DNA from: Candidatus Omnitrophota bacterium
GTDB taxonomy: Bacteria; Omnitrophota; Gorgyraeia; Zapsychrales; Zapsychraceae
Assembly (NCBI GenBank): GCA_022703565.1
Contig: JAKLDK010000001.1
Coordinates: 8,017 to 72,016 of the forward strand
Direction of reading: 5' to 3'
Length of the DNA: 64,000 nucleotides
This document shows positions 50,823-64,000 of the stretch, piece after piece. How positions within the stretch are numbered: the first letter of the stretch is position 1; the number at the start of each line of letters is the position of its first letter. Under the pieces are notes generated by a model. It searched no databases. It was not told the DNA's origin and saw only the letters and a list, made by a program, of their open reading frames with translations. A program made the translations under genes and the position numbers.

Positions 50823-53537
50823 ATGCCAGTAAAAAATAATCTTTATTCATATCGTTCAGACGGAATTAGTTTTGTATCCAAAAAAGGTACGCAATTAAGG
50901 ACGCTATATTTCCCTTTGTGCGGGACTAGCGCGAAAAGCCTTAAGTCTTCGATAACGCCTCTTCTTTCCGGTGATATTAAAACTGACAAGAATCATTTCT
51001 TGACCAAGCCTTTATCGACGGAAGACTTGCGAAATACTGTGCGGAATTTTTATGTTAATGTCGCGGACAAAGGCGCGGTGTCATTGTCTCAAATTGGAGA
51101 GATTGAAAATGCTACGATTGAAGCCGGCCAGCTCTGGCATAAGTTGATTAGAAAATTCCCGAAGGAAGGAATAAGGATAGAGGCCGTTAATTTTGTGCCG
51201 GTAACGGATGATAACGTTGAATTAATGCGAGTTAAAATTACCAATATCTCGTCAGATAAAATAAAAATTAACCCTACGGCCAGTATTCCGATTTTTGCCC
51301 GGACATTAGCCAATAAACATGACCACGAAAATGTCACGTCTCTTTTAAACCGAATCGAACAGCTTTCAATTGGCGTTGTTGTCGAGCCGACGATGATTTT
51401 TAACGAAGAAGGCCACCGGGCGGCGGATAGTATTTATTATGTCTTTGGTGCTACTGAATCTGGTGAACTGCCCAAGGGAACTTTTCCGACGGTTAATTCG
51501 TTTTATGGCGATAGCGGAACAGCGGATAGCCCGGAAGCTATTGTAAAAAATAGTATTCCTATGAGCTTATCTAGCGAGGAATTACATGGCCGTGAAGCTA
51601 TGGGAGCTGTTTGTTTTAACCCGGTACAATTATTAGCCAATGAATCGAGAGAATATTTTATTATCATCGGTATTGCCAGGAATAAAGAAGAAGCAATCCA
51701 AGTGTTTGAGAAATATAATTCGCTTGAGAAGCATGACCGAGAGCTTGAGGTATGCAAGGATTTCTGGTTGAATAAATCAAAAGCGATTTCCTTTGAAACT
51801 GGTAATAAAGAATTCAATAGCTGGATGCGCTGGGTTTGCTTGCAGCCGATACTAAGGAGAATATTCGGCTGTTCTTTTTTGCCCGACCATGATTATGGCA
51901 AAGGCGGACGCGGTTGGCGCGATATTTGGCAGGATTTGCTTTCGTTGATTCTAATTGAACCGGAAAATATCCGCACAACATTAATAAATAATTTTGCTGG
52001 TATTAGAATCGACGGGACAAACGCCACAATTATTGGCGCAGAGCCGGGGGAATTTATCGCCGACAGGAATAATATTGTCCGGGTCTGGATGGACCATGGA
52101 GTTTGGCCCTTCTTAACAACTCTTTTATATATTGATCAGACCGGTGATTTTGATATCTTGCTTGAAGAACAGACATATTTTCGCGATAGGCAGCTTTCGC
52201 GTACTCTTAAAAAAGATGAGAGTTGGAATCCGCGTTATATCAACCGCTTAACTGATGAAAATAAACAGATTTATAAGGCAACTATCCTCGAGCATTTGAT
52301 TTTGCAAAATATTGTGCAGTTCTTTAATGTCGGCGAGCATAATATTACCCGTTTGGAAGGTGCGGATTGGAATGACGGATTGGATATGGCATATGAACGG
52401 GGCGAGAGCATTGCTTTTATGAGTTTTTATGGCGGAAATCTTTTAAGAATTGCGGATTTGCTTGAGAATTTGGCGAAAGCTAAGAAAATTGATTCCATAT
52501 CTTTGACGGAAGAAATGGCTGTTTTGTTTGATTCTTTAAATGAGGGAATTGATTACGATAATATTGAGGAAAAGAAGAAATTGTTATTTGAGAAGTATTT
52601 TAATTCGGTCGAGCCTTATGTGAGCGGGCGAAAAAAGGAAATAAAGATTAGCGCTTTGGTAAGCGATTTAAGGAAAAAGGGAACTTGGGTTTTTGAGCAT
52701 ATTCGAAAGAATGAAAAAATAAAGCTTAAAATAGACGGCCGTGAATACGTCTGGTTTAATGGTTATTATGATAACAAAGGTTCTCGGGTTGAGGGTAAGG
52801 TCTATGAAAGCATTCGCATGACTTTGACCGGCCAGGTTTTTCCGATAATGAGCATGCTCGCGAATGAAGAAGAAATAAAACAAGTCGTAGATAGTGTTGA
52901 TAAATTGCTTAAAGATAAGAATTTATCCGGGATTAGATTAAACACTGATTTCAAATTAACGCATTATTTAAATTTAGGCCGAGCTTTTGGTTTTGCTTAT
53001 GGGACAAAAGAAAATGGTTCATTTTTTAGCCATATGAATGTGATGTATGCTTATGGCTTATATTCTCGGGGATTTGCTCATGAAGGTTATAAAATATTGA
53101 AATCAATTTACGAAATGTGCATGGATACGGATAGAAGTAAAATTTATCCCGGAATTCCGGAATACTTTGATTCTCTGGGACGTGGGATGTACCATTATTT
53201 AACCGGTTCGGCCAGTTGGTTTGTTTTAACAAAATTAACACAGAGCTTTGGTATGCGCGGAGAAAAGGGCGATTTGATTATTAACCCTAAACTGGTCAAA
53301 GAAGAATTCGGCGATAAAGGAATTGCATCCATTACAACAAAGTTTGCCGGAAAGAAAATAACGGTTGAATTTGTTAATAAAGAGAAATTGGATTATGGCG
53401 ATTATAACATTGCTGAGGTCAAACTAAACGGTAGCAAAATAGATTTTGAGCGGATAGATCCTAATTGTATCAGAATTTCCCGCAGCATAATCCTCAAAGA
53501 AGAAACAAGCTGTAAATTTACTGTAATTTTGTCTTAG
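50823..53537 (+). CDS. Cytoplasmic (alpha/alpha)6-barrel glycoside phosphorylase/hydrolase, GH94-like
   Basis: 904 aa with no signal peptide. GADWNDGLD at about residue 515 matches the position and sequence of the GH94 catalytic-acid motif. The size matches laminaribiose/cellodextrin phosphorylases. Family assigned by pattern only. Confidence 0.5.
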   Translation: MPVKNNLYSYRSDGISFVSKKGTQLRTLYFPLCGTSAKSLKSSITPLLSGDIKTDKNHFLTKPLSTEDLRNTVRNFYVNVADKGAVSLSQIGEIENATIEAGQLWHKLIRKFPKEGIRIEAVNFVPVTDDNVELMRVKITNISSDKIKINPTASIPIFARTLANKHDHENVTSLLNRIEQLSIGVVVEPTMIFNEEGHRAADSIYYVFGATESGELPKGTFPTVNSFYGDSGTADSPEAIVKNSIPMSLSSEELHGREAMGAVCFNPVQLLANESREYFIIIGIARNKEEAIQVFEKYNSLEKHDRELEVCKDFWLNKSKAISFETGNKEFNSWMRWVCLQPILRRIFGCSFLPDHDYGKGGRGWRDIWQDLLSLILIEPENIRTTLINNFAGIRIDGTNATIIGAEPGEFIADRNNIVRVWMDHGVWPFLTTLLYIDQTGDFDILLEEQTYFRDRQLSRTLKKDESWNPRYINRLTDENKQIYKATILEHLILQNIVQFFNVGEHNITRLEGADWNDGLDMAYERGESIAFMSFYGGNLLRIADLLENLAKAKKIDSISLTEEMAVLFDSLNEGIDYDNIEEKKKLLFEKYFNSVEPYVSGRKKEIKISALVSDLRKKGTWVFEHIRKNEKIKLKIDGREYVWFNGYYDNKGSRVEGKVYESIRMTLTGQVFPIMSMLANEEEIKQVVDSVDKLLKDKNLSGIRLNTDFKLTHYLNLGRAFGFAYGTKENGSFFSHMNVMYAYGLYSRGFAHEGYKILKSIYEMCMDTDRSKIYPGIPEYFDSLGRGMYHYLTGSASWFVLTKLTQSFGMRGEKGDLIINPKLVKEEFGDKGIASITTKFAGKKITVEFVNKEKLDYGDYNIAEVKLNGSKIDFERIDPNCIRISRSIILKEETSCKFTVILS

Positions 53538-53688: not shown

Positions 53689-56600
53689 ATGTTTAAGAAA
53701 GTAATTTTATTGGTTTTAGGGTTAGTTTTACTTTTATCGGCCAATGTTTTTGCCCAAAACATGTTTTCAAATGCTGATTTCTCTAACGGCGTAAATGGTT
53801 GGTCAACAGTTGGATATCCGTTTTATGCTATTGTCAGAGCGCCAAATTATGCTGCGGAAAACACAATAACAACAGTTTCTGACCGCGATTATTTCGCAGA
53901 AATTTATCAGGTAATTACTCCTTTTACCGCCGGCGATCCGGTTTATATGACCGCTGAAATAAAAACACAGCTAGATCCAGGTTCAAGTGCTAGCGGTGGA
54001 ATTATCGTTGAATTTCTAAATGCTTCAAATAATGTTTTAAATACAATTACAACATCTGTTGTTGGCAATACGAATTGGAATACAGTTTATGTTACCGGAA
54101 CAGCTCCGGCGGGAACTGTTAAAATCAGAGCTGGTGCTTTTGTTTTTGCGGCGGAAGATGATAGTGCTGCTTTAAACGGAAAAGTTAGTGTTGATAATTT
54201 ATTTATTGATAATATTCAAGCTCCGGGCGGCGGGCTTATTACAAACCCAGGTTTTGAATCACAAATAAGCGGATGGACAACAGGCGTTGGCTCGTATCCC
54301 TTTATTGCTTCAACCGCACAAACTCATTCCGGAGTTTATTCTGCATATGATGCTGTTAATAGTGTGAGTGGAGATTATTGGGGATTTATTTATCAAACTC
54401 CGACGGTTCCAGTGGGCGGTACGATTTATGCTTCAGCGTGGGGAAAAACCGAGATTAGCCCTCTTTCATCAGCAGTTGGCGGATTAATAGTTCAATTTTT
54501 AAATTCAAGCGGAGTTCTAATTTCAAAATTAGAATCAAAAATTGGCGGAAATACTGATTGGCATCAGCTTTATGTTTCAGGAACAGTGCCTGTTGGTACC
54601 GTAACAATTAAAGTTGGTGGATATCTTTGGGCCGCAAATGGTGATAGCGCCGCTCTTGGCGGTAAAGTATATATTGATGATTTCGCGGTCTCAACAACTC
54701 CAATTCCTCCGCCGCAGCAACCGCAGGAATTAATTAATTCTGATTTTGAAAATGGAGTTAATGATTGGGCTTGGATTTACCGTCCTTTTGTGGCAAGCAC
54801 AACTGCGCATACTGGAATTTATTCAGCAAAACATAATATTGGCAACACGACGGGCCCGAATGATTATTTAGCCGAAATTTATCAGGAAATTCCTTTTACT
54901 GCCGGAAATGTTGCTTATTTGACCGGCTGGGTTAAGACAAATATAAATCCTGCAAGGACTGCGGTAGGTGGTATTAAGGTTCAATTTGTTGATGCTGCTG
55001 GTACGTTAATTGGTGCGGCTTCTCAGGCTGATCGTGACGGAATCAATGATTGGACGCTTCTTTACGTAAATGCTGTAGCTCCGACTGGAACAGCTAAGGT
55101 TAGAATTAGTGCCTTTGCTTGGGCGGATAACAATCAAGGCACAGTTAACGGGGATGTTTTTATAGACGGCCTGGCATTCTCCAATACTCCGCCGAGTTCA
55201 CTGCTTCTAAATTCAAGCTTTGAAAGCGATATGGCAGGATGGACACAAGATGCAACCGGATATCCGATGACAGCTGTAACCGAAGAACATCGTACTGGCG
55301 CAAAATCAGCAAAGACAACGATTCAGCTTCCCGGGGGAAGTTCTGATTTCTGGTCGAGAATCTATCAGGAATTTACAATTGTTCCGGGACAAGCTTTATA
55401 CGCAACAGCTTGGGCGAAGACCGCGATTAATCCGTCTTCGACGGGAACTGCTGGCTTGAAAATAGAATTCTTTAACGGTACTACTCCGACGGGATCGGTT
55501 ACTTCAAATACTGTTGGTGGGCAAGCCGGATGGACATATCTTTATGCTTTTGCAACCGCACCAGCTGGAACAACAAAGGCTCGCATCAGCCCTTTTGTTA
55601 GTTGCCCTCGCGCAACAGCAAATTTAGGCGGAAATGTTTATTTTGATGATGTTTATGGTTCATTCGACCAGCTTCCTCCCCCGGCATTTAGGACAGCTTT
55701 GATCAACGCTAGTTTTGATGACGGAAGTGGGCTAGGAGGATGGACGGACCTTTATGGTTTACCGACGACGCTAGATTCTATAAATTCTTATTCAATTCCA
55801 TATTCGGCAAAAAAGACATTCGCGCAAATTCCGGATCAGGATTATTACACTACTGTCTATCAAGATATTTACTATAATGCAAATGGTACGCCATTTCCGA
55901 CGGCAAGAAATGTGTATTTAGCTGCTTATATTAAGACGGCAATTAATCCTTTGGCAAATGCTTCGGGTGGAATTGCGCTTGAATATTTTGATGAAAGCGG
56001 CGAAGCTTACACAATAGATACTGATCAGGTTAGTGCAAACAATGATTGGCGGCAGCTTTATGTTTCCGGAACGATTCCAGCGGGGGCAACCAAAGTGAGA
56101 GTTTTGGGATTTGCGTTTGCTCCGTTAGGTGAAACTTTAGCTGATAACGGAATTGTTAATTTTGATAATTTTAACTTTTCCTATAACTACATTCCGGAAC
56201 AAGTTCAAACATCGTTGTTGAATGTTGGATTTGAAAACGGATTGAATGATTGGGATCAGTTAAATCGTTTAGCCGGAATTACACAAGCTCCGGTTCATGG
56301 AGGGAACTATTCTTCATATTTTGACATTCAGGTTGATTTAGTAGATCCTCAAGATTATTATGGAACATTGTCACAAGATATTGCTGTTTTACCTGGGAAG
56401 ATAGTAGAAGCCAGCGCTTGGGTTAGTACGGATATTTACCCGCTTACAAATGCTCAAGCCGGTATAAAATTACAATTTATTGACGGCAATGGACAGGCAA
56501 TTGGTCCGGAATATACAAACGGAATTGGCGGCAATACCGGGTGGACTCAACTAAGTTTGGTCCGAACTGCTCCGGCACAAACAGCTAAAGTTCGGTATAT

Positions 56601-57135
56601 TTTATTCTTGTATGCGGAAGGCCTTTCGGCAATTAACGGAGATAGGGCTTACTATGATGACGCTTCTTTGCTTATCCGTAATGCTCCTGGCCCAGGATGC
56701 TTTTTAGCTGAAACTCCGATTACCTTATCAGATGGCTCAACTAAGCCTATTGAAGAAATAAAAATAGGCGATATGGTTATGGCTTACAATGAAGAGACAA
56801 AGACATTAGAAACTAATGAAGTAACAACAATTTTCAATCATGACAAGGAAGATGTTTATTTGCTGGTCAACGGTACTCTTAAGGTTACTCCGGTTCACCG
56901 TGTTTTAACTAAAGGCGAGTGGAAGGAAATCGGTACATTGGCTGTAGGCGATACCTTAACCGATATGAAAGGCAATGATGTTCTTATTGCTTCAATAGAA
57001 AAAGTTAACGAAAAGGTCGATATCTATAATTTTGAAGTATCGCCTCTTCATACCTACATAGCTGGCGGATTTATAGTTCACAATAGAAAACTAAACTATA
57101 CAATAGCTTTTGGCGATGGGAATGGAACTCGTTAA
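53689..57135 (+). CDS. Secreted protein with six tandem CBM4/9-like carbohydrate-binding modules and a C-terminal Hint (bacterial intein-like) domain
   Basis: Signal peptide. Six ~165-aa repeats each open with N-x-x-F-E/S-x-G-x-x-G/D-W and close with a V-x-h-D-D/N-h motif. The final 145 aa are CFLAETPITLSDG...VTPVHRVL...GGFIVHN followed by a 16-aa tail: Cys1, a TxxH-like block, and terminal His-Asn with no +1 nucleophile. Confidence 0.75.
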   Translation: MFKKVILLVLGLVLLLSANVFAQNMFSNADFSNGVNGWSTVGYPFYAIVRAPNYAAENTITTVSDRDYFAEIYQVITPFTAGDPVYMTAEIKTQLDPGSSASGGIIVEFLNASNNVLNTITTSVVGNTNWNTVYVTGTAPAGTVKIRAGAFVFAAEDDSAALNGKVSVDNLFIDNIQAPGGGLITNPGFESQISGWTTGVGSYPFIASTAQTHSGVYSAYDAVNSVSGDYWGFIYQTPTVPVGGTIYASAWGKTEISPLSSAVGGLIVQFLNSSGVLISKLESKIGGNTDWHQLYVSGTVPVGTVTIKVGGYLWAANGDSAALGGKVYIDDFAVSTTPIPPPQQPQELINSDFENGVNDWAWIYRPFVASTTAHTGIYSAKHNIGNTTGPNDYLAEIYQEIPFTAGNVAYLTGWVKTNINPARTAVGGIKVQFVDAAGTLIGAASQADRDGINDWTLLYVNAVAPTGTAKVRISAFAWADNNQGTVNGDVFIDGLAFSNTPPSSLLLNSSFESDMAGWTQDATGYPMTAVTEEHRTGAKSAKTTIQLPGGSSDFWSRIYQEFTIVPGQALYATAWAKTAINPSSTGTAGLKIEFFNGTTPTGSVTSNTVGGQAGWTYLYAFATAPAGTTKARISPFVSCPRATANLGGNVYFDDVYGSFDQLPPPAFRTALINASFDDGSGLGGWTDLYGLPTTLDSINSYSIPYSAKKTFAQIPDQDYYTTVYQDIYYNANGTPFPTARNVYLAAYIKTAINPLANASGGIALEYFDESGEAYTIDTDQVSANNDWRQLYVSGTIPAGATKVRVLGFAFAPLGETLADNGIVNFDNFNFSYNYIPEQVQTSLLNVGFENGLNDWDQLNRLAGITQAPVHGGNYSSYFDIQVDLVDPQDYYGTLSQDIAVLPGKIVEASAWVSTDIYPLTNAQAGIKLQFIDGNGQAIGPEYTNGIGGNTGWTQLSLVRTAPAQTAKVRYILFLYAEGLSAINGDRAYYDDASLLIRNAPGPGCFLAETPITLSDGSTKPIEEIKIGDMVMAYNEETKTLETNEVTTIFNHDKEDVYLLVNGTLKVTPVHRVLTKGEWKEIGTLAVGDTLTDMKGNDVLIASIEKVNEKVDIYNFEVSPLHTYIAGGFIVHNRKLNYTIAFGDGNGTR

Positions 57136-57260: not shown

Positions 57261-57336
57261 TGCGCGTAAATATTTTTTGGCGCATTGTTGTCCATTTTTT
57301 TTATTAGGAATATATCTTTTTGAAATAAAGGATGTT

Positions 57337-58659
57337 ATGAAAAAAATAGTCAGTATAATTATTGTTTTTATTCTGTTTGTTAGTCTTGCCATTTTTCTCA
57401 ACAAAGGTAATAAAAAAGATAATCAAAAAAGAATAGTCTTGTGGCATTGGATGACTGACCGCGACAAAGCCCTGCAGGAATTATCCAGACAATATAAAGA
57501 ACTAACTGGCGTCGAAATCGATGTCGAATTATACGCCCCTTCAAAAGTTTATGCCCGAAAAATTACTGCTGCTGCTCAAGCTAAAGTCCTGCCGGATATA
57601 TACGGGATTCTAGATACAAAAGAAACTTTTGCAAATTATATTAAAAGCGGGCTTGTGGCTGATTTAACTGAGGAATTTAAGAAAAATAATTCAGCTTTGG
57701 AAAAAACATTCTTTCCTAAAGCGCTCGATGTTAACAGGTTTAAAGAGGGGAATATTTATGATATTTCTCCCGGTATTTACGGAGTGCCGCTAGATATAAC
57801 CATTATTCAGATGTTATATAACAAGAATCTTTTAGCTAAGGCTGGATTTAAGAACCCTCCGAATAATTTTGCTGAATTCGTAACGCAGTTGAAAGCTTTA
57901 AAGCGAATCGGAATAAACGGTCTGGTTTCCGGTTGGGGTGAATTATGGTTAATTGATTGCTTCGCTTTAAATTATGCTTTTAACATTATGGGCGAAGAAA
58001 AGATTATGGCTACCTTTAGAGGCGAAATCCCGTATACTGACCCGGACTGGATAACGGTTTTCGGTTTGTTTAAAACTCTCAAAGATATCGGCGGGTTGGC
58101 GGAAGGAATTATTACCAAGGAAAATAAATATGCCGAACAAGATTTTGCTTTAGAACGCGCGGCTTTTGCTTTTAATGGTTCCTGGTGTTTAAATGTTTAC
58201 AATAAAATGAATCCCAGCCTTGTTTATAGCGCAATGCTTCCTCCGGCGATAAATGCGGATAAACCGATGATGATTTGGGGTGGAGCCGGATCTTCTTTTG
58301 TTGTGAACAATAATTCTAAGAGCAAAGAAAAAGCCATTACTTTCTTAAAATGGTTATCGGCTAAAGATCAGCAGGCTTATTTGTCAAAAGAAACGCAAAA
58401 TTTGCCGGCGAATAAAGATTCTTTGGTCGACATTCCGGATGTATTGGCTGGTTTTGCAAAAGTAATGGATAATACCACTCATCCGACAATATGGAAATAC
58501 AATGAAAATTCTCTTGTTGCCGAGCGGTTTGATAAGGGAATCCAGTCTATAATTTTAGGGGATAAAACTCCTGAGCAGGTTGGACAAGAAGTTCAAGAAG
58601 AAAAAGAAAAGCAAATAGCGAGAGAAAAACGTCGGCAGCAAAGAAAACAAAATAATTAA
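57337..58659 (+). CDS. ABC transporter substrate-binding protein (carbohydrate, SBP family 1)
   Basis: N-terminal signal anchor plus the family-1 extracellular solute-binding fold (MalE-like). Start at the ATG at 57337. Confidence 0.75.
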   Translation: MKKIVSIIIVFILFVSLAIFLNKGNKKDNQKRIVLWHWMTDRDKALQELSRQYKELTGVEIDVELYAPSKVYARKITAAAQAKVLPDIYGILDTKETFANYIKSGLVADLTEEFKKNNSALEKTFFPKALDVNRFKEGNIYDISPGIYGVPLDITIIQMLYNKNLLAKAGFKNPPNNFAEFVTQLKALKRIGINGLVSGWGELWLIDCFALNYAFNIMGEEKIMATFRGEIPYTDPDWITVFGLFKTLKDIGGLAEGIITKENKYAEQDFALERAAFAFNGSWCLNVYNKMNPSLVYSAMLPPAINADKPMMIWGGAGSSFVVNNNSKSKEKAITFLKWLSAKDQQAYLSKETQNLPANKDSLVDIPDVLAGFAKVMDNTTHPTIWKYNENSLVAERFDKGIQSIILGDKTPEQVGQEVQEEKEKQIAREKRRQQRKQNN

Positions 58660-59579
58660 TGAAATACGAAAAAGTAAGAAATTTAGTAATCCGGGACTAT
58701 CTAATAAATTTCTCTTTTGCTTTGCCGGCAATTGCGATCTTCAGCATTTTTTATATTATTCCTTTCTTTGAAGTTTTCCGCCTATCTTTGATGGACTGGA
58801 ACGGAACTTTCCCTCCGGCCGAATTTATTGGCCTGGAAAATTTTAGCGAGCAATTTCATGATAATCTTTGGTGGGGCTCGATGCTTCACGCGGGATTTAT
58901 TACGCTTATTGCTTTGACCTTGCAAAATGTTTTAGCTTTTGCCTTAGCCTTGGCTTGTGACCGGGAAATAAAAGCAAAACGATTTTATCAGGTAATGTTT
59001 TTTATCCCGCCGGTCTTATCGGAAGTTGTCGTCGGGCTTATTTGGCAATGGATTCTTTATTTCGGGATGCAGGGCGGCGAGCATATCGGGCTTTTAAACC
59101 ACTTTTTGGCAAAGACCGGTTTACCGAATTTGGTGCATAACTGGCTTTCTGACCCGAAAACCGCATTGCCTTGTATTGCGATTGTGCACGCTTGGAAAGG
59201 TTTCGGTTGGGGATTTATTATGTTGTTGGCGGGATTGCAAACAATTGATAAGCAGCTTTATGAAGCGGCTAAGGTTGATGGCGCTGGTAATTGGCACGTT
59301 TTTCGTCATATTACCGTGCCGATGATGATGCCGATTATTGTGGTTGTTATGATTCTTACAGTTTTAGGCTCGATGCAGGTGTTTGTTTTGATTCTAGCAA
59401 TGGTGGGAGAAGGCGGATTGGCGGATTATACCAGCGTCCCAGTCTTAAAAATTCTGGGCTCGATGAATGGCGCGAAAAGATTTGGTTATGCTTGCTCGCA
59501 AGCTATATCGTTTGGGTTAATTTTGGTTTGTGTTTCGGCATTTTTTAAAATTATTTCTAACAGGACTAAACAGGCATAA
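58659..59579 (+). CDS. ABC transporter permease (MalF-like)
   Basis: 6-TM BPD_transp_1 fold with an EAA-type loop (AAKVDGAGNWHVFRHITVPMM). Confidence 0.8.
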   Translation: MKYEKVRNLVIRDYLINFSFALPAIAIFSIFYIIPFFEVFRLSLMDWNGTFPPAEFIGLENFSEQFHDNLWWGSMLHAGFITLIALTLQNVLAFALALACDREIKAKRFYQVMFFIPPVLSEVVVGLIWQWILYFGMQGGEHIGLLNHFLAKTGLPNLVHNWLSDPKTALPCIAIVHAWKGFGWGFIMLLAGLQTIDKQLYEAAKVDGAGNWHVFRHITVPMMMPIIVVVMILTVLGSMQVFVLILAMVGEGGLADYTSVPVLKILGSMNGAKRFGYACSQAISFGLILVCVSAFFKIISNRTKQA

Positions 59580-59581
59580 GA

Positions 59582-60427
59582 ATGAGAACAGTAAATTATC
59601 AGGCGATTAATACTTTGAAATCAGTTGTTATTCATTCTTTTTTGATTTCGGTTGCGATGACCTGTATTTTTCCTATTTTCTGGATGGTGCGTTCTTCTTT
59701 GATGACACCGTCTACAATATTCTCGGATAAGTCTTTTATTCCCAAGGAAATACATTTTGAGAATTATTATTTTGCTTGGATGGAGGGCGGTTTTGGAGCG
59801 TACTTCCTAAATAGTGTTTTATATACTACAACCGTTGTTGTGGGGATTGTTATTATTGCTTCATTAGCGGCATATGCGTTTTCTCGCCTACAATTTCCGG
59901 GGAAGAACTTCTTTTTTTATATGTTTGTCGGCGCGATGATGATTCCACTCCCGGGGAGTTTCGTTCCGCTTTATGTGTTAATGAATAAGCTGGGGTTGCT
60001 TAATTCCCGGCTAGGTTATATACTTTGTATGATTAATGTCGGACTTTCCTTAAGCATCCTTATTTTAAAAACATTTTTTGATAAGATGCCTTCTGATTTA
60101 GAGGAAGTGGCAAAAATCGACGGTTGCAGCCGTTTGGGGATTTGGTGGCATGTGGTGCTTCCTTTGGCTCGGCCGGCAATTGCGGTAATTGTTATTTTTA
60201 ATTCTTTGAATGTTTGGAACGAATATATCTTGGCAATGCTTTTGTTAAATGACAAAGCCAAGATGCCTCTACAGATTGGTATAATGCAGTTTCAAGGTGC
60301 ATATAGCGTCGATTATCATCTTTTGATGGCCGGACTGACAATCGCGGCTGTGCCGATAGTTTTGATATATCTAGCTATGCAAAAACATATTATTAAAGTA
60401 CTAGCCTCAGGAGCGGATCTCGGTTGA
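59582..60427 (+). CDS. ABC transporter permease (MalG-like)
   Basis: EAA loop EVAKIDGCSRLGIWWHVVLPLARPAI. No ATPase gene is adjacent. Confidence 0.8.
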   Translation: MRTVNYQAINTLKSVVIHSFLISVAMTCIFPIFWMVRSSLMTPSTIFSDKSFIPKEIHFENYYFAWMEGGFGAYFLNSVLYTTTVVVGIVIIASLAAYAFSRLQFPGKNFFFYMFVGAMMIPLPGSFVPLYVLMNKLGLLNSRLGYILCMINVGLSLSILILKTFFDKMPSDLEEVAKIDGCSRLGIWWHVVLPLARPAIAVIVIFNSLNVWNEYILAMLLLNDKAKMPLQIGIMQFQGAYSVDYHLLMAGLTIAAVPIVLIYLAMQKHIIKVLASGADLG

Positions 60428-62832
60428 GACAACAAAAACATAAAATCATAATTCTCGCGTTTCTTTTCTTAACCTTTTCTAATTTTGTACTTGCCGAAGA
60501 AAAACCAGAAAAAAAAGAAGACGTTATTACTAGGGCGACTCCTAAGGTTAACCTAGACAAAGGCCTGCAGACTCCGGAAGGCCAAGATATTCCTAAGGAG
60601 CCGGAAATTTCTTCTCAAGAATTAATTAAACAATTATGGGAAGCTAATGCTAAAAACGATTTGGCTCAGGTCGAAGAACTAACTGCAAAATGTTTAAGCA
60701 TTTTTGATAAGACTGCCCGAGAGCAGCAGGCTCTTTTAAAAGGTTTTCCGGCTAGAGGCGAAGAAAGTTTTTATCAAGAATTAAATGATACAGGAGGGTG
60801 TTTATTCGTTCATGCCGAAGAATTAAGAGATTTTGGGAAAAAAGATGAGGCTATTAAAGAATGCCAAAATGTGATTGATAATTATGGCTGGTCGCAGCAA
60901 TGGGACCCTTCCCGCGGGGCTTGGTGGTCGGTTGCTGAAAAATGTTCGGAACTAATCGCCGATTATAATTACGACGAGAAAACAGAAGAAGCTAAGGAAG
61001 TGAAACAGATAATTGTAAAGCCGGTTCTTTATAATTACGGCAAAACCCAGGTTGTTGACTATACAAAATATGGCCGTTTTAAAGATGTCGGAAAACCTAC
61101 CTACAAATATTCTATCGCTGATATCGAAGGGTTGTCTGCCGCAGCAGGAGAGGGTATTTACCCTAATACTAGTGATATTTATAACAATCCTCGCTACAAG
61201 GAAGTTAAGGCCGCTGGCAGGTTGGAAGGTTCCCAGTGGGATTATGTTCGTACGCCGGATTTAGAAGCGGCATATTTTAAGTGGGCTACAGCTCCGGAGC
61301 CTTGGGGAGTTAAGCTTTTTTATATGGGATTGATTTTTGAGAAGGCACAGATGTGGCACGAAGCCTTAAAGGCTTATCATGCGATTGTAGTACATTTTCC
61401 AAAGACGATTGCCTGGACTTATTGGCAGACGCCGTGGTATCCTGCCCAAGCCGCGATTGCTAAAATAAGATATTTGTTGAGAATCCATCCGGAATTAAAT
61501 TTGCAAGAAAAATGGATGAAAGTTGAAGTGGTAAACGGTTTTGATAATGATTCGCAAAATGATATTTTTATAACTTATCCCGGAAAAATAATTAAAAAGA
61601 ATTTAATCGAAATAGCAAAAGAGAAATTTAACATTGGGCGAAAAGTTTTTCTGGGTAAAGTAAAGAGAAGATTAGGCGAAGGAAAAGTCCGGCTGGTGCA
61701 ATACGAAAATAATCACTGGCAGCTTATTGTTGATGGGAAGCCGTATATTGTTAAGGGAATTACTTATGCCCCAACAAAGATAGGAGAATCTCCCGACAAA
61801 GGTACTCTAAAGAATTGGATGGACCAGGATACCAATAATAATGGCAAAGCCGATGGCCCTTATGATGCTTGGGTTGATCAAAACAAAAACAATATTCAAG
61901 ATGATAATGAGCCTACTGTCGGTGATTTTAAAATCATGAAAGATATGGGGGCAAACACCATCCGTGTTTATGAGCAGCCGAATTTTAAAATTAATAAGAA
62001 GTTAATGAATGAAATGTTCGCGAATTATGGTATCAGGGTTATTTTGGGTAATTTCTTGGGTAAATATGCGATTGGGTCAGGAGCGAGTTGGAGTGAAGGG
62101 ACCGATTACGATAATCCGGAGCATAAAAAAAATATGATGGAAGATGTTAGGAAAATGGTTATGGACCATAAAGATGAACCATATTTGCTGATGTGGTTGC
62201 TTGGCAATGAAAATAATTATGGAGTCGCAAGCAACGCTGATAAAAAACCGGAAAGTTATTTTAAATTTGTTAATGAAGTTGCACAAATGATAAAAACAAT
62301 TGATCCTAATCATCCGGTTGCAGTAAACAATGGGGATACTCTTTATTTGGATGTATTCGCCAGGCATTGCCCAGATGTTGATATTTTTGCTGGAAATATT
62401 TATCGTGGTGACTATGGTTTCGGTTCTTTCTGGGAACAAGTTTTTGGCTCGAGTGGAAAAGCGGCTTTGGTTACAGAATATGGTTGCCCGGCTTTTGCCA
62501 AACATTTATTGCCCGAAGAAAGGGAAGAAGCCCAGGCAGAATATCACCGCGGGAATTGGCTGGATATTGTTGATAATAGTGCCGGTTATAAAAATGGCGT
62601 TGGTAATGCTTTAGGTGGAGTTGCTTTTGAATGGCTGGATGAGTGGTGGAAAAATTATCAGCCTTTTAGGCATGATCGAAAAAGCGATGCTATCGGGCCT
62701 TTCCCTGGGGGGTATTATTTTGAGGAATGGTTTGGATTGATTGGCCAGGGGAATGGACAGAATAGCCCATTTTTGCGTCAGCCAAGAAAAGTGTTTTATA
62801 CCTATAAGGAGCTTTGGAATACTGACAATTAA
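60424..62832 (+). CDS. Secreted clan GH-A TIM-barrel glycosidase (GH5/GH2-like) with an N-terminal helical repeat domain
   Basis: Signal peptide. Beta1 motif DFKIMKDMGANTIRVY; acid/base LLGNENNYG; nucleophile ALVTEYGCP about 90 aa downstream. A D-x-D-x-N-G-x-x-D Ca-loop-like segment (DQDTNNNGKADGPYD). The N-terminal ~125 aa are homologous to the repeats in the next gene. Confidence 0.6.
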   Translation: MRQQKHKIIILAFLFLTFSNFVLAEEKPEKKEDVITRATPKVNLDKGLQTPEGQDIPKEPEISSQELIKQLWEANAKNDLAQVEELTAKCLSIFDKTAREQQALLKGFPARGEESFYQELNDTGGCLFVHAEELRDFGKKDEAIKECQNVIDNYGWSQQWDPSRGAWWSVAEKCSELIADYNYDEKTEEAKEVKQIIVKPVLYNYGKTQVVDYTKYGRFKDVGKPTYKYSIADIEGLSAAAGEGIYPNTSDIYNNPRYKEVKAAGRLEGSQWDYVRTPDLEAAYFKWATAPEPWGVKLFYMGLIFEKAQMWHEALKAYHAIVVHFPKTIAWTYWQTPWYPAQAAIAKIRYLLRIHPELNLQEKWMKVEVVNGFDNDSQNDIFITYPGKIIKKNLIEIAKEKFNIGRKVFLGKVKRRLGEGKVRLVQYENNHWQLIVDGKPYIVKGITYAPTKIGESPDKGTLKNWMDQDTNNNGKADGPYDAWVDQNKNNIQDDNEPTVGDFKIMKDMGANTIRVYEQPNFKINKKLMNEMFANYGIRVILGNFLGKYAIGSGASWSEGTDYDNPEHKKNMMEDVRKMVMDHKDEPYLLMWLLGNENNYGVASNADKKPESYFKFVNEVAQMIKTIDPNHPVAVNNGDTLYLDVFARHCPDVDIFAGNIYRGDYGFGSFWEQVFGSSGKAALVTEYGCPAFAKHLLPEEREEAQAEYHRGNWLDIVDNSAGYKNGVGNALGGVAFEWLDEWWKNYQPFRHDRKSDAIGPFPGGYYFEEWFGLIGQGNGQNSPFLRQPRKVFYTYKELWNTDN

Positions 62833-62972
62833 CTGCCTTATTTTGTAGTTTAAACCATTTTTCTGCGTTAAAATGTTTCCAAATTAAGCTATTGGCAAAA
62901 TACAAAAAAATGTTGTATACTTCTTTTTATAGTAAACTGTTATTAATATCATAAATAGATAGGAGGAGTTTT

Positions 62973-63821
62973 ATGAAGAAAATTCTAACGGTCCTGGCAT
63001 TGTGTTTATTTGTCGCGACTATGGCTCAAGCCGCGGTTAATTTCGGAGATTATCGCTCAGAGACATTAACCACAAAAGCTTGGGGAGCTTTAGCCCAAGG
63101 TGACACACAAGCCGTGCTTGCTTACACCAACAAATGCCTTGAATTATATGCCGAGCAAGCAAAAAAAATGCAAGATAGCCTTACCGAATATCCTGCCGGA
63201 GAAAAAGATAAAATTTTTAGTTTTTGGGCCTTAAATGATGTGGCTACGTCTCTTTTTGTCCAGGGAGAGGCTTTCCGTCGAGCGAACATGAAGAATGAAG
63301 CTGTAGAAGCCTTCAAGAAAATTGTAAACGAATATTCTTACGGACAAACTTGGGATACAAATGGATGGTTTTGGAAGCCGGCTGAAGCAGCGAAAGAAAA
63401 GTTAGCGATGCTGGAATCAGGCGTTTTCTTAGATTTCGGCGATTATACTTCGTCTTTTATTACTGGCCAAGCCTGGAAAGCTTTAGAAGAAAATAAATTG
63501 GATGCAGTATTATCTTATACTAATAAGGTAATTGAACTTTATGCCCCAAAAGCAAAAGAAATGCAAGCGTCTTTGACCGAATATCCTTGGCAATCCCGCG
63601 AGCAAATATTTAATTTTTGGGCATTGAATGATGTCGGCACATCTTATTTTATTCAAGGAAAAGCTTTTGATGCCGCTGGAAAAAAAGCAGAAGCAAAAAC
63701 TGCTTATCAAACGTTAATTGATAATTATTTTTACGCACAATGCTGGGATCCAAAAGGATGGTTCTGGAAGCCTGCAGAAGCAGCACAAGAAGCAATTGAC
63801 GCGATCGGCGAAGTTAAATAA
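62973..63821 (+). CDS. Secreted protein composed of two tandem copies of a ~125-aa TPR-like helical domain
   Basis: Signal peptide. The two repeats share YTNK(C/V), LTEYP, FWALNDV(A/G)TS, NY(S/F)Y(G/A)Q(T/C)WD and GWFWKPAEAA. A third copy is at the N-terminus of the upstream glycosidase. Confidence 0.6.
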   Translation: MKKILTVLALCLFVATMAQAAVNFGDYRSETLTTKAWGALAQGDTQAVLAYTNKCLELYAEQAKKMQDSLTEYPAGEKDKIFSFWALNDVATSLFVQGEAFRRANMKNEAVEAFKKIVNEYSYGQTWDTNGWFWKPAEAAKEKLAMLESGVFLDFGDYTSSFITGQAWKALEENKLDAVLSYTNKVIELYAPKAKEMQASLTEYPWQSREQIFNFWALNDVGTSYFIQGKAFDAAGKKAEAKTAYQTLIDNYFYAQCWDPKGWFWKPAEAAQEAIDAIGEVK

Positions 63822-63841: not shown

Positions 63842-63890
63842 TTGGTCTAACATCTTATCTCATTGATTTGATGTTAGACCAATTTTTTTT
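63842..63890 (+). terminator. Intrinsic terminator with a 13-bp perfect stem
   Basis: TTGGTCTAACATC, 15-nt loop, GATGTTAGACCAA, then TTTTTTTT. Confidence 0.85.
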
Positions 63891-63933: not shown

Positions 63934-64000
63934 ATGAAGAAGTGTGCAATTGCAGCATTTTTATTATTATTTCTAGTCGGATGTAAAGGGCAAGCCGGAG
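63934..64000 (+). CDS. Lipoprotein, N-terminal fragment (continues beyond the window)
   Basis: MKKCAIAAFLLLFLVGCKG lipobox after a GGAAAGG RBS. Confidence 0.45.
   Translation, partial: MKKCAIAAFLLLFLVGCKGQAG

What the first reader, a model, noticed from the sequence alone, without database searches (positions are those of the whole stretch)
60424..63821. Uncharacterised ~125-aa helical domain present three times: once on the GH-A glycosidase and twice in a dedicated secreted protein
Pairwise comparison shows that the N-terminal region of the 802-aa glycosidase and both halves of the 282-aa downstream protein share a conserved signature: YTNKC, LTEYP, FWALNDV-TS-F-QG-AF, NY-Y-Q-WD and GWFWKPAEAA. 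The pattern is TPR-like (compare YbgF/BamD) but does not match any named CBM I recognise. Its presence both as an appendage to a catalytic domain and as a stand-alone tandem protein in the same operon is how substrate-binding or cell-surface-anchoring modules are typically distributed. The GH-A protein also carries a DxDxNGxxD calcium-loop-like segment reminiscent of a dockerin repeat.
Basis: seen in the sequence. Interest (0 to 1): 0.5.

Follow-up and report, generated by a model that had tools for sequence, protein, structure and literature searches.

The report
TPR-hairpin module of β-1,3-glucan loci
A previously undescribed ~125-residue helical (TPR-type) domain with a tryptophan-rich hairpin recurs on two unrelated families of β-1,3-glucan-cutting enzymes and as a stand-alone tandem protein in a conserved laminarin-type sugar-uptake operon of Omnitrophota, so it is probably a new kind of accessory, possibly glucan-binding, module, though binding has not been shown.

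Summary

The locus is a β-1,3-glucan system: a laminaribiose phosphorylase orthologue (E 4e-271), an ABC importer, a GH158-like glycosidase with both catalytic Glu conserved, the tandem-domain protein, two uncharacterised envelope proteins and LacI. This order recurs in nearly all of 80 Omnitrophota species genomes.

The domain forms about 1,400 clusters, with 1-7 copies per protein. In Verrucomicrobiota and Kiritimatiellia it is fused to GH128 β-1,3-glucanases (118 of 119 clusters). Rarer fusions are to a GT2, a Ser/Thr kinase and an RHS protein. One Omnitrophota-type locus splits it from the glycosidase.

My best reading is a separable accessory module of β-1,3-glucan degradation that probably binds the glucan. 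This is inferred, not shown. The dockerin idea is not supported. Interest is moderate to good: it may be a new all-helical CBM-like family.

The parts
50823..53537 (+). GH94 laminaribiose phosphorylase orthologue (904 aa). It sets the substrate theme of the locus.
   Evidence: phmmer against PDB: 6ggy laminaribiose phosphorylase, E 3.6e-271, residues 27-890 of 904. Pfam GH94 domains. A GH94 gene lies upstream of the operon in about half of related loci.
57277..60427 (+). ABC sugar importer: solute-binding protein (57277-58659) and two permeases (58659-59579, 59582-60427).
   Evidence: Pfam SBP_bac_1/8. PDB relatives are oligosaccharide-binding proteins. BPD_transp_1 permeases in orthologous loci. 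Conserved order in 80 species loci.
60424..62832 (+). 802-aa exported GH158-like (clan GH-A) glycosidase that carries the domain.
   Evidence: Signal peptide MRQQKHKIIILAFLFLTFSNFVLA, read from the sequence.
60610..60969 (+). Full copy of the TPR-hairpin domain on the glycosidase (aa 63-182).
   Evidence: BLASTP E 7e-16 to the 282-aa protein. HMM hit at 63-178. Modelled helices 64-76, 80-104, 114-136 and 140-153, hairpin 158-169, helix 170-182. Present in all 121 glycosidase homologues.
61303..61485 (+). Degenerate half copy (aa 294-354: TPR_6 repeat, hairpin AWTYWQTPWYP and a capping helix).
   Evidence: HMM hit at 295-350 to profile positions about 60-129. Pfam TPR_6 at 298-328. Model helices 294-307, 311-324 and 340-354.
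61765..62829 (+). (beta/alpha)8 catalytic domain (aa ~448-802), preceded by a beta-sandwich (aa 360-447, nt 61501-61764). Predicted acid/base E596 (62209-62211) and nucleophile E685 (62476-62478).
   Evidence: phmmer to GH158 9oro_A, E 3.8e-13. Foldseek to GH158 9p25/6pal, E ~1e-12 to 1e-11. E596 and E685 are invariant in 45 homologues and align with GH158(Pro) Glu143/Glu229 (together with PMC13195107).
61816..61914 (+). Asp/Asn-rich, calcium-loop-like insertion (aa 465-497) in the catalytic domain. It is not a dockerin.
   Evidence: Sequence. Conserved in homologues (D469, D477, D485 and N487 invariant). Coil with pLDDT 54-82. No Dockerin Pfam hit at E<=1.
62892..62921 (+). Promoter-like site (TTGGCA-18-TATACT) in the 140-nt gap before the 282-aa gene. 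AGGAGG ribosome-binding site at 62961-62966.
   Evidence: (consensus match only).
62973..63821 (+). 282-aa secreted protein: signal peptide (aa 1-20) plus two tandem copies of the domain.
   Evidence: 2313 homologues with 2 or 3 copies.
63033..63422 (+). Domain copy 1 (aa 21-150).
63423..63818 (+). Domain copy 2 (aa 151-282).
63842..63890 (+). Strong hairpin followed by U8: an intrinsic-terminator-like element directly after the 282-aa gene.
   Evidence: RNA fold dG -25.8 kcal/mol, z -6.25, 0 of 200 shuffles as good.
63935..64000 (+). Start of the next conserved operon gene, a ~210-aa lipoprotein of unknown family (MKKCAIAAFLLLFLVGC lipobox), cut by the window end.
   Evidence: Orthologues follow the tandem-domain gene in 87 loci. 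No Pfam or PDB match.

Best explanation
The ~125-aa unit is a distinct, previously unnamed domain family. It consists of a short TPR array (five helices, one of them a bona fide TPR_6 repeat) with a conserved Trp-rich beta-hairpin (QxWD..GWxW) between the last two helices. It is a separable, exported accessory module of beta-1,3-glucan degradation systems in PVC-group bacteria. In this Omnitrophota locus, a GH158-like glycosidase bearing one copy probably cuts laminarin-type beta-1,3-glucan in the periplasm or at the cell surface into laminaribiose or short oligosaccharides. An ABC transporter then imports them, and a GH94 laminaribiose phosphorylase splits them into glucose and glucose-1-phosphate under LacI control. 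My preferred mechanism for the domain is that each copy binds the beta-1,3-glucan chain through the conserved polar/aromatic cluster formed by the hairpin and the start of helix 3. On the enzyme it would target or hold the substrate. In the stand-alone 2- or 3-copy protein it would act as a multivalent glucan-retaining protein next to the transporter, working like a CBM or SusD-type binding protein. What is shown: the repeat, its fold class, the family size, the fusions, the operon conservation and the beta-1,3-glucan theme. What is inferred: ligand binding, the binding site and cellular location.
Against: No binding data exist. TPR domains typically bind proteins or peptides, and the nearest structure (YbgF/CpoB) is a protein-binding periplasmic scaffold. 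I could not map conserved residues onto coordinates, so the conserved N/D/Q/W cluster may simply hold the hairpin in place. The operon also encodes a lipoprotein whose C-terminal domain looks CBM-like by motif, and that protein could be the real glycan binder. Some family members are fused to non-CAZyme partners (Ser/Thr kinase, RHS, coiled coil), and one locus has domain-only proteins with no CAZyme nearby (L010). The substrate assignment rests on about 20% identity to GH158. GH2_C and GH72 Pfam models also hit weakly.
Confidence: 0.45

Rival explanations
1. Protein-protein docking module. As in most TPR domains, the copies bind a peptide or protein. The tandem protein would be a periplasmic scaffold that recruits the glycosidase (through like-with-like or shared-partner contacts) and the downstream lipoprotein and coiled-coil anchor into an envelope-bound complex next to the ABC transporter. 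This would work like a cohesin-dockerin or PelB/PgaA-TPR scaffold.
For: TPR fold, with best hits to protein-binding scaffolds YbgF, BamD, YfgM and LpoP. Strict co-conservation of the tandem protein with a lipoprotein and a membrane-anchored coiled-coil protein. TPR scaffolds that organise periplasmic glycan-processing enzymes are known (PgaA TPR, PMC9384988, listed).
Against: GH128 fusions in Verrucomicrobiota and Kiritimatiellia lack the tandem protein, lipoprotein and coiled-coil neighbours. The same conserved surface motif in 1-7 tandem copies fits a repetitive ligand better than a single protein partner. The domain can be encoded with no operon partners (L010).
Confidence: 0.25
2. Cell-envelope anchoring module. 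The domain binds a generic envelope polymer (peptidoglycan, an outer-membrane or S-layer component) and so retains exported enzymes and sensors at the cell, in the manner of SLH, LysM or PASTA modules.
For: Tandem copy-number variation. Fusions to a Ser/Thr kinase (PASTA-like architecture), an RHS protein, a GT2 and large surface-type proteins as well as to GHs. All members examined have signal peptides.
Against: The strongest and most frequent fusions, and the whole Omnitrophota operon, are specific to beta-1,3-glucan catabolism. A soluble protein made only of anchor modules has no obvious role. The hairpin motif tracks the glucanase-linked subfamilies.
Confidence: 0.15
3. Regulatory or chaperone role for the glycosidase. 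The N-terminal helical region and the free tandem protein would modulate (inhibit, activate or fold) the catalytic domain rather than bind substrate.
For: The whole-chain model has pTM 0.80, which suggests the helical region packs against the rest of the enzyme. The degenerate half copy (294-354) is retained even in the fission variant, so it may be structural.
Against: The full N-terminal copy is separable and joins a different catalytic family. Nothing indicates a propeptide or a cleavage site.
Confidence: 0.08

Closest known systems
YbgF/CpoB C-terminal TPR domain (PDB 2xev; Pfam TPR_6)
   Different: Only 14% identity. The window proteins have no N-terminal coiled coil and are not in a tol-pal context. 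They have an inserted Trp-rich beta-hairpin and an extended second helix. They occur as self-contained tandem units fused to glycosidases.
Carbohydrate-binding modules (CAZy CBMs) appended to beta-1,3-glucanases, e.g. the CBM6 on a GH128 curdlanase (PMC10956234)
   Same: Discrete non-catalytic module N-terminal to catalytic domains of two GH families. Variable tandem copy number. Also occurs as module-only proteins in the same locus.
   Different: All-helical TPR fold, whereas to my knowledge known beta-glucan CBMs are beta-sandwich or beta-trefoil. Carbohydrate binding has not been shown.
SusD-like surface glycan-binding proteins of Bacteroidota PULs
   Same: A TPR-based helical protein encoded next to the transporter and glycosidase of a glycan-utilisation locus. 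It sets a precedent for TPR scaffolds binding glycans, and the BuGH158 locus is such a PUL (PMC7157763, listed).
TPR scaffolds of synthase-dependent exopolysaccharide systems (PgaA, PelB, BcsC, AlgK)
   Same: Periplasmic TPR domains that work with glycoside hydrolases. The PgaA TPR domain is reported to bind PNAG (PMC9384988 title and abstract).
   Different: Those are long TPR superhelices fused to outer-membrane porins in biosynthetic operons. Here the operon is catabolic (phosphorylase, importer, LacI).
GH158 beta-1,3-glucanases (BuGH158 6pal; GH158(Pro) 9p25/9oro)
   Same: Closest relatives of the catalytic domain by sequence and by fold. The GNE and TE(Y/F)G catalytic motifs align.
   Different: About 20% identity. 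The solved GH158 enzymes are about 400 aa (barrel plus Ig-like domain) and lack the ~440-aa N-terminal TPR/beta-sandwich region and the Asp/Asn-rich insertion.

Membership tests
TPR superfamily (Pfam clan TPR; TPR_6) | Helix-turn-helix repeats of ~34 residues that match a TPR profile above threshold | tested here: met
   TPR_6 E 1.9e-10, 41.1 bits against a cutoff of 26.3, two stretches on the 282-aa protein. On the glycosidase it scores 24.6 bits, just below the cutoff.
TPR superfamily (Pfam clan TPR; TPR_6) | Right-handed antiparallel helical-repeat fold | tested here: met
YbgF/CpoB | N-terminal trimerising coiled coil plus C-terminal TPR domain, encoded in the tol-pal cluster | tested here: not met
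   No coiled coil: each protein is a signal peptide followed by domain copies. The operon is ABC importer, GH and LacI.
CAZy carbohydrate-binding module | Contiguous, independently folding non-catalytic module found within carbohydrate-active enzymes | tested here: met
   Fused to GH158-like enzymes (121/121) and GH128 enzymes (118/119). Separable in L011. Discrete fold.
CAZy carbohydrate-binding module | Demonstrated carbohydrate-binding activity | not testable with these tools
   Requires affinity gel, ITC or a crystal complex.
CAZy carbohydrate-binding module | Sequence match to an existing CBM family | tested here: not met
   No CBM Pfam hit at E<=1. No NCBIfam hit. No PDB sequence hit below E 0.1.
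Dockerin (type I/II) | About 70-aa module with two 22-residue Ca-binding loop-helix (F-hand) segments, recognised by Pfam Dockerin_1 | tested here: not met
   No Dockerin hit at E<=1. The segment 465-497 is coil inserted inside the catalytic domain.
GH158 | (beta/alpha)8 barrel with acid/base Glu (GNE) and nucleophile Glu (TEFG) equivalent to Glu143/Glu229 of GH158(Pro) | tested here: met
   E596 and E685 align to them (numbering offset of 8 checked against PMC13195107). Both are invariant in 45 homologues.
GH158 | Significant full-domain sequence similarity to family members (CAZy-style assignment) | tested here: inconclusive
   phmmer E 3.8e-13, but only over query residues 557-687. Foldseek gives 20% identity with TM to target 0.46-0.57. 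It could be a distant GH158 subfamily or a new GH-A family.
GH158 | Beta-1,3-glucanase activity | not testable with these tools
   Supported only by context: the laminaribiose phosphorylase orthologue.
SusD-like | About 500-aa lipoprotein with a TPR core, paired with a SusC TonB-dependent transporter | tested here: not met
   282 aa with a type-I signal peptide (AQA/A). No SusC gene; the transporter is ABC-type.

The most novel reading that the evidence does not exclude
The TPR-hairpin domain is the founding member of a new, all-alpha-helical carbohydrate-binding module family specific for beta-1,3-glucan. PVC bacteria use it both on enzymes (GH158-like, GH128) and as multivalent stand-alone glucan-capture proteins. 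In Omnitrophota, it and two further uncharacterised envelope proteins would form a new type of laminarin-capture apparatus feeding an ABC importer, a non-Bacteroidota counterpart of the Sus paradigm.
Probability: 0.35. Interest if true: 0.75.

Novelty: new variant of a known kind. Interest (0 to 1): 0.58.

Why it matters
Laminarin-type β-1,3-glucan is one of the largest marine and aquatic carbon pools. Omnitrophota are abundant, uncultured and poorly understood.

This work identifies a near-universal Omnitrophota operon as a probable β-1,3-glucan uptake system. It also flags a large unnamed domain family (about 1,400 clusters at 50% identity) that travels with β-1,3-glucanases of two GH families in three PVC lineages.

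If the domain binds glucan, it would be a structurally new CBM class, helical repeat rather than β-sandwich. That would be useful for CAZyme annotation, for probes of β-1,3-glucan and for enzyme engineering. If instead it is a docking module, it would define a new way of assembling periplasmic glycan-degrading complexes.

Either outcome can be tested directly with one small soluble recombinant protein.

Tried and rejected
- **Dockerin reading of the DxDxNG segment.** Rejected: no Pfam hit, a coil insertion inside the barrel, and too short.
- **Exopolysaccharide-export scaffold (PgaA, PelB or BcsC type).** Rejected as membership: the operon is catabolic and there is no porin or synthase, although one rare family member is fused to a GT2.
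- **Solved or curated relatives.** phmmer against PDB, NCBIfam and Foldseek against PDB found nothing specific.
- **AFDB fold search.** The library was unavailable.
- **The search for related loci with the single-domain alignment.** It failed for lack of a conserved 7-10 column stretch, so I used the two-copy alignment instead.
- **Context of single-domain proteins P0293 and P0297.** The contigs are only 1-1.6 kb and are uninformative.
- **Mapping conservation onto the 3D model.** Not possible, because model coordinates are not exposed. The proposed binding site is therefore inferred from helix and hairpin topology only.
- **Literature searches on Omnitrophota, GH158, GH128 and TPR.** No description of this domain was found.
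Full report
**1. The observation**

The region holds two + strand ORFs. One encodes 802 aa (60424-62832; its TTG start overlaps the stop of the upstream permease). The other encodes 282 aa (62973-63821; AGGAGG ribosome-binding site 7 nt upstream).

- Residues 21-150 and 151-282 of the 282-aa protein align without gaps at 55% identity, E 1e-50.
- Residues 63-178 of the 802-aa protein align with both halves: 35% identity with E 7e-16, and 29% with E about 1e-12.
- An HMM of the repeat also detects a weaker half copy at residues 295-350 of the 802-aa protein.
- In an alignment of 39 copies from many proteins, the invariant residues are W18, L51, N69, Q106, W108, D109, G112 and W115. L68, D70, T73, A91 and A118 are conserved at 90% or more.

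**2. What the domain looks like**

- An AlphaFold2 model of the 282-aa protein, built on 41 orthologues, has mean pLDDT 88.
- After a cleavable signal peptide (…ATMAQA/AVNF) there are two equivalent units.
- Each unit has a short helix, a long helix, a loop with a one-turn helix, two more helices, a two-stranded β-hairpin (Q-x-W-D … G-W-F-W) and a capping helix.
- Pfam places helices 3-4 in TPR_6 above threshold (41 bits against 26).
- Foldseek against the PDB gives only generic TPR matches, none at E ≤ 0.001.
- phmmer against PDB sequences and NCBIfam give nothing.

The hairpin and the self-contained ~125-aa unit are what set the domain apart.

**3. What the glycosidase and the locus are**

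- The 802-aa protein has a signal peptide and a low-complexity linker, followed by the full domain copy (63-182).
- A mixed region comes next, ending in the degenerate half copy (294-354). It is followed by a β-sandwich (360-447) and a (β/α)8 barrel (model pLDDT 81, pTM 0.80).
- By sequence, the only solved relatives are GH158 β-1,3-glucanases (9oro E 3.8e-13, 6pal E 2.5e-9).
- By fold, the same GH158 enzymes rank first, ahead of GH2 and GH35.
- In the phmmer alignment, E596 (LLGNENNYG) and E685 (LVTEYG) pair with the GNE and TEFG glutamates. [quoted passage not shown] Both are invariant in 45 homologues.
- That paper reports that GH158(Pro) is processive and releases mainly laminaribiose.
- The window's 904-aa GH94 protein (50823-53537) matches laminaribiose phosphorylase 6ggy over its full length at E 3.6e-271.
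- Between the GH94 gene and the glycosidase lie a sugar-type solute-binding protein and two permeases.

The simplest reading is a β-1,3-glucan pathway: exported GH158-like glucanase, then ABC import of laminaribiose or oligosaccharides, then phosphorolysis. Substrate identity is inferred from homology and context, not shown.

**4. Conservation of the locus**

- The 282-aa protein has 2313 relatives in the 5.8-billion-protein collection. Those that carry a name are labelled Omnitrophota (one Aureabacteria). They carry two copies (~285 aa, 64-80% identical) or three copies (~415-455 aa).
- The glycosidase has more than 1000 relatives at about 60% identity. All 121 examined carry the N-terminal copy.
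- A scan of one genome per GTDB species found 452 loci. The best 80 are labelled Omnitrophota, apart from bins labelled 'uncultured Planctomycetales' and a few generic or odd labels, which are likely the same phylum.
- In those 80, the order solute-binding protein, permease, permease, glycosidase (1 copy), tandem-domain protein, ~210-aa lipoprotein, ~440-aa membrane-anchored coiled-coil protein, LacI, GidA is present wherever the contig reaches. GH94 lies upstream in about half.
- Exceptions are informative:
  - L009 has four tandem paralogues of the domain protein.
  - L010 has domain-only proteins with no CAZyme nearby.
  - In L011 the orthologous glycosidase matches the family profile only from position 204 onward (860 bits). 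It lacks the N-terminal copy, while 168-aa and 276-aa domain-only genes and a three-copy protein sit in the same cluster. The full copy is thus a separable module that is sometimes encoded apart.

**5. The family beyond this operon**

- A profile of 39 copies, searched against 1.84 billion representative proteins, finds 1436 clusters at E ≤ 0.001 and 920 at E ≤ 1e-10.
- Among the best 148, proteins have 1 (94), 2 (39), 3 (7), 4 (5) or 5 (3) full copies, and up to 7 stretches.
- Members with extra sequence include the following:
  - two copies plus Glyco_hydro_cc/PF11790 (P0282);
  - four diverged copies on a GH72/GH2_C-like enzyme (P0295);
  - two copies plus a cellulose-synthase-like GT2 (P0292);
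  - four copies plus chitobiase-C/Fn3-associated domains (P0257);
  - a Ser/Thr kinase plus two copies (P0357);
  - an RHS protein (P0326).
- PF11790 is the GH128 β-1,3-glucanase family (PMC11046878; PMC13526803). The catalytic part of P0282 matches Glyco_hydro_cc structures 6uaq and related entries at E 1e-26.
- The fusion is not a one-off. A search with P0282 returned 264 clusters. Of the 119 retrieved, 118 have one copy (107) or two copies (11) N-terminal to the GH128 core. They have signal peptides and are labelled Kiritimatiellia, Opitutae or Verrucomicrobiota.
- Their genomic contexts lack the Omnitrophota tandem protein, lipoprotein and coiled-coil protein.
- The hairpin motif QxWD..G..W is retained in 264/273 copies of the tandem proteins, 113/121 GH158-like copies and 128/129 GH128 copies. 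It is retained in only 132/228 copies in the general representative set. The diverged GT2, chitobiase-C and P0295 copies have lost the tryptophans while keeping the helical core.

**6. Interpretation**

What is shown:
- a new, large, exported domain family of TPR fold with a hairpin;
- recurrent N-terminal fusion to two different β-1,3-glucanase families in different phyla;
- fission and fusion with the glycosidase;
- tandem copy-number variation;
- strict residence in a β-1,3-glucan-type catabolic operon in Omnitrophota.

What I infer: the domain binds the glucan. The reasons are these.
- The same conserved residues occur in every copy, whether on GH158-like enzymes, on GH128 enzymes or free. 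This points to a common ligand that is available in all those settings, and the substrate is the obvious candidate.
- Multivalency suits a polymer.
- The invariant polar and aromatic residues are N, D at the start of helix 3 and Q, W, D, G, W in the hairpin. By TPR topology these should lie together at one end of the helices.
- Their loss in non-glucanase members suggests a specificity element.
- TPR scaffolds that bind glycans have precedents in SusD and in the PgaA TPR domain (PMC9384988).

Against this:
- TPRs usually bind proteins.
- I could not inspect coordinates.
- The conserved cluster may be purely structural.
- The downstream lipoprotein has a CBM-like motif pattern and could be the glycan binder.
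- Some members are fused to non-CAZyme proteins.

I put glucan binding at about 0.45, a protein-docking scaffold at about 0.25, envelope anchoring at about 0.15, and a regulatory or chaperone role below 0.1.

**7. The dockerin remark**

- The segment D467-P497 (DTNNNGKADGPYDAWVDQNKNNIQDDNEP) is real and conserved. It looks like one or two calcium-binding loops.
- It is a coil insertion within the catalytic domain. It lacks the F-hand helices and gives no Dockerin hit at E ≤ 1.
- It is better described as a probable structural Ca²⁺ site of the barrel, and even that is untested.

**8. Expression signals**

- A 140-nt gap with a promoter-like site (62892-62921) precedes the 282-aa gene.
- A strong hairpin plus U8 follows it (63842-63890; ΔG -25.8 kcal/mol, z -6.25).
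- This suggests the tandem protein can be expressed on its own and that read-through into the lipoprotein gene is limited.

**9. Novelty**

- The fold is known, and the role (accessory module of CAZymes) is a known kind.
- The domain family itself is unnamed. It is annotated everywhere only as 'tetratricopeptide repeat protein' or 'hypothetical'. It was not found in the literature searched.
- If it binds glucan, a helical-repeat CBM would be new to my knowledge.
- I rate it a new variant of a known kind, with interest about 0.58.

Noticed in passing
window 63935-64000 (continues beyond the window); orthologues e.g. L001 10902-11675, L005 11005-11643: A conserved ~210-aa lipoprotein (lipobox LVGC) always follows the tandem-domain gene. 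Its ~150-aa C-terminal domain (…NHYVPSGFMP.GKC…WAGIYWLNP.NNWG..KGGFNL.GA.KL.FWAKGE…FYLD.I.FE) has no Pfam or PDB match. By motif it resembles a CBM-type beta-sandwich, so it may be the operon's glycan binder.
   Followed up: partly
L001 12119-13465 and orthologues in 76 loci (beyond the window end): A conserved ~440-aa protein with an N-terminal membrane anchor, a long coiled coil and a C-terminal FlgT_C-like segment (Pfam E 3e-4, below cutoff) lies between the lipoprotein and LacI. Its role is unknown.
   Followed up: partly
window 53689-57135: A 1148-aa secreted protein with about six ~170-aa CBM-like repeats (weak Mann_GBD_bact and NTTRR-F1 hits) and a C-terminal Hint/PT-HINT autoprocessing-type domain is inserted between GH94 and the solute-binding protein. 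The same insertion is seen in L034, L045 and L055.
   Followed up: partly
window 50823-53537: The GH94 protein is a full-length orthologue of laminaribiose phosphorylase (6ggy, E 3.6e-271). NCBIfam has no model for it.
   Followed up: yes
window 63842-63890: A 13-bp perfect stem with an inner stem, followed by U8 (dG -25.8 kcal/mol, z -6.25), was missed by the simple terminator scan because its loop is longer than 8 nt.
   Followed up: yes
L009 1672-6664: One Omnitrophota-type contig carries four consecutive paralogues (417, 412, 429 and 297 aa; 3+3+3+2 copies) of the domain protein in place of the usual single gene.
   Followed up: partly
L001 3535-4229; L008 1-213: Two small PilZ-domain genes lie just upstream of the operon or GH94 in several loci. 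A possible c-di-GMP link was not examined.
   Followed up: no
window 61816-61914 (aa 465-497 of the glycosidase): A conserved Asp/Asn-rich double loop (DTNxNGxxDGPYD…DxNxNNxQDxDEP) is inserted in the barrel. It is a likely Ca2+ site and is absent from the ~400-aa solved GH158 enzymes, judging by their length.
   Followed up: partly
P0342 (5953 aa), P0356 (1998 aa), P0295 (1939 aa): Diverged copies of the domain occur inside very large proteins, of the kind reported for Omnitrophota 'giant genes'. P0342 could not be scanned because it exceeds the length limit.
   Followed up: no
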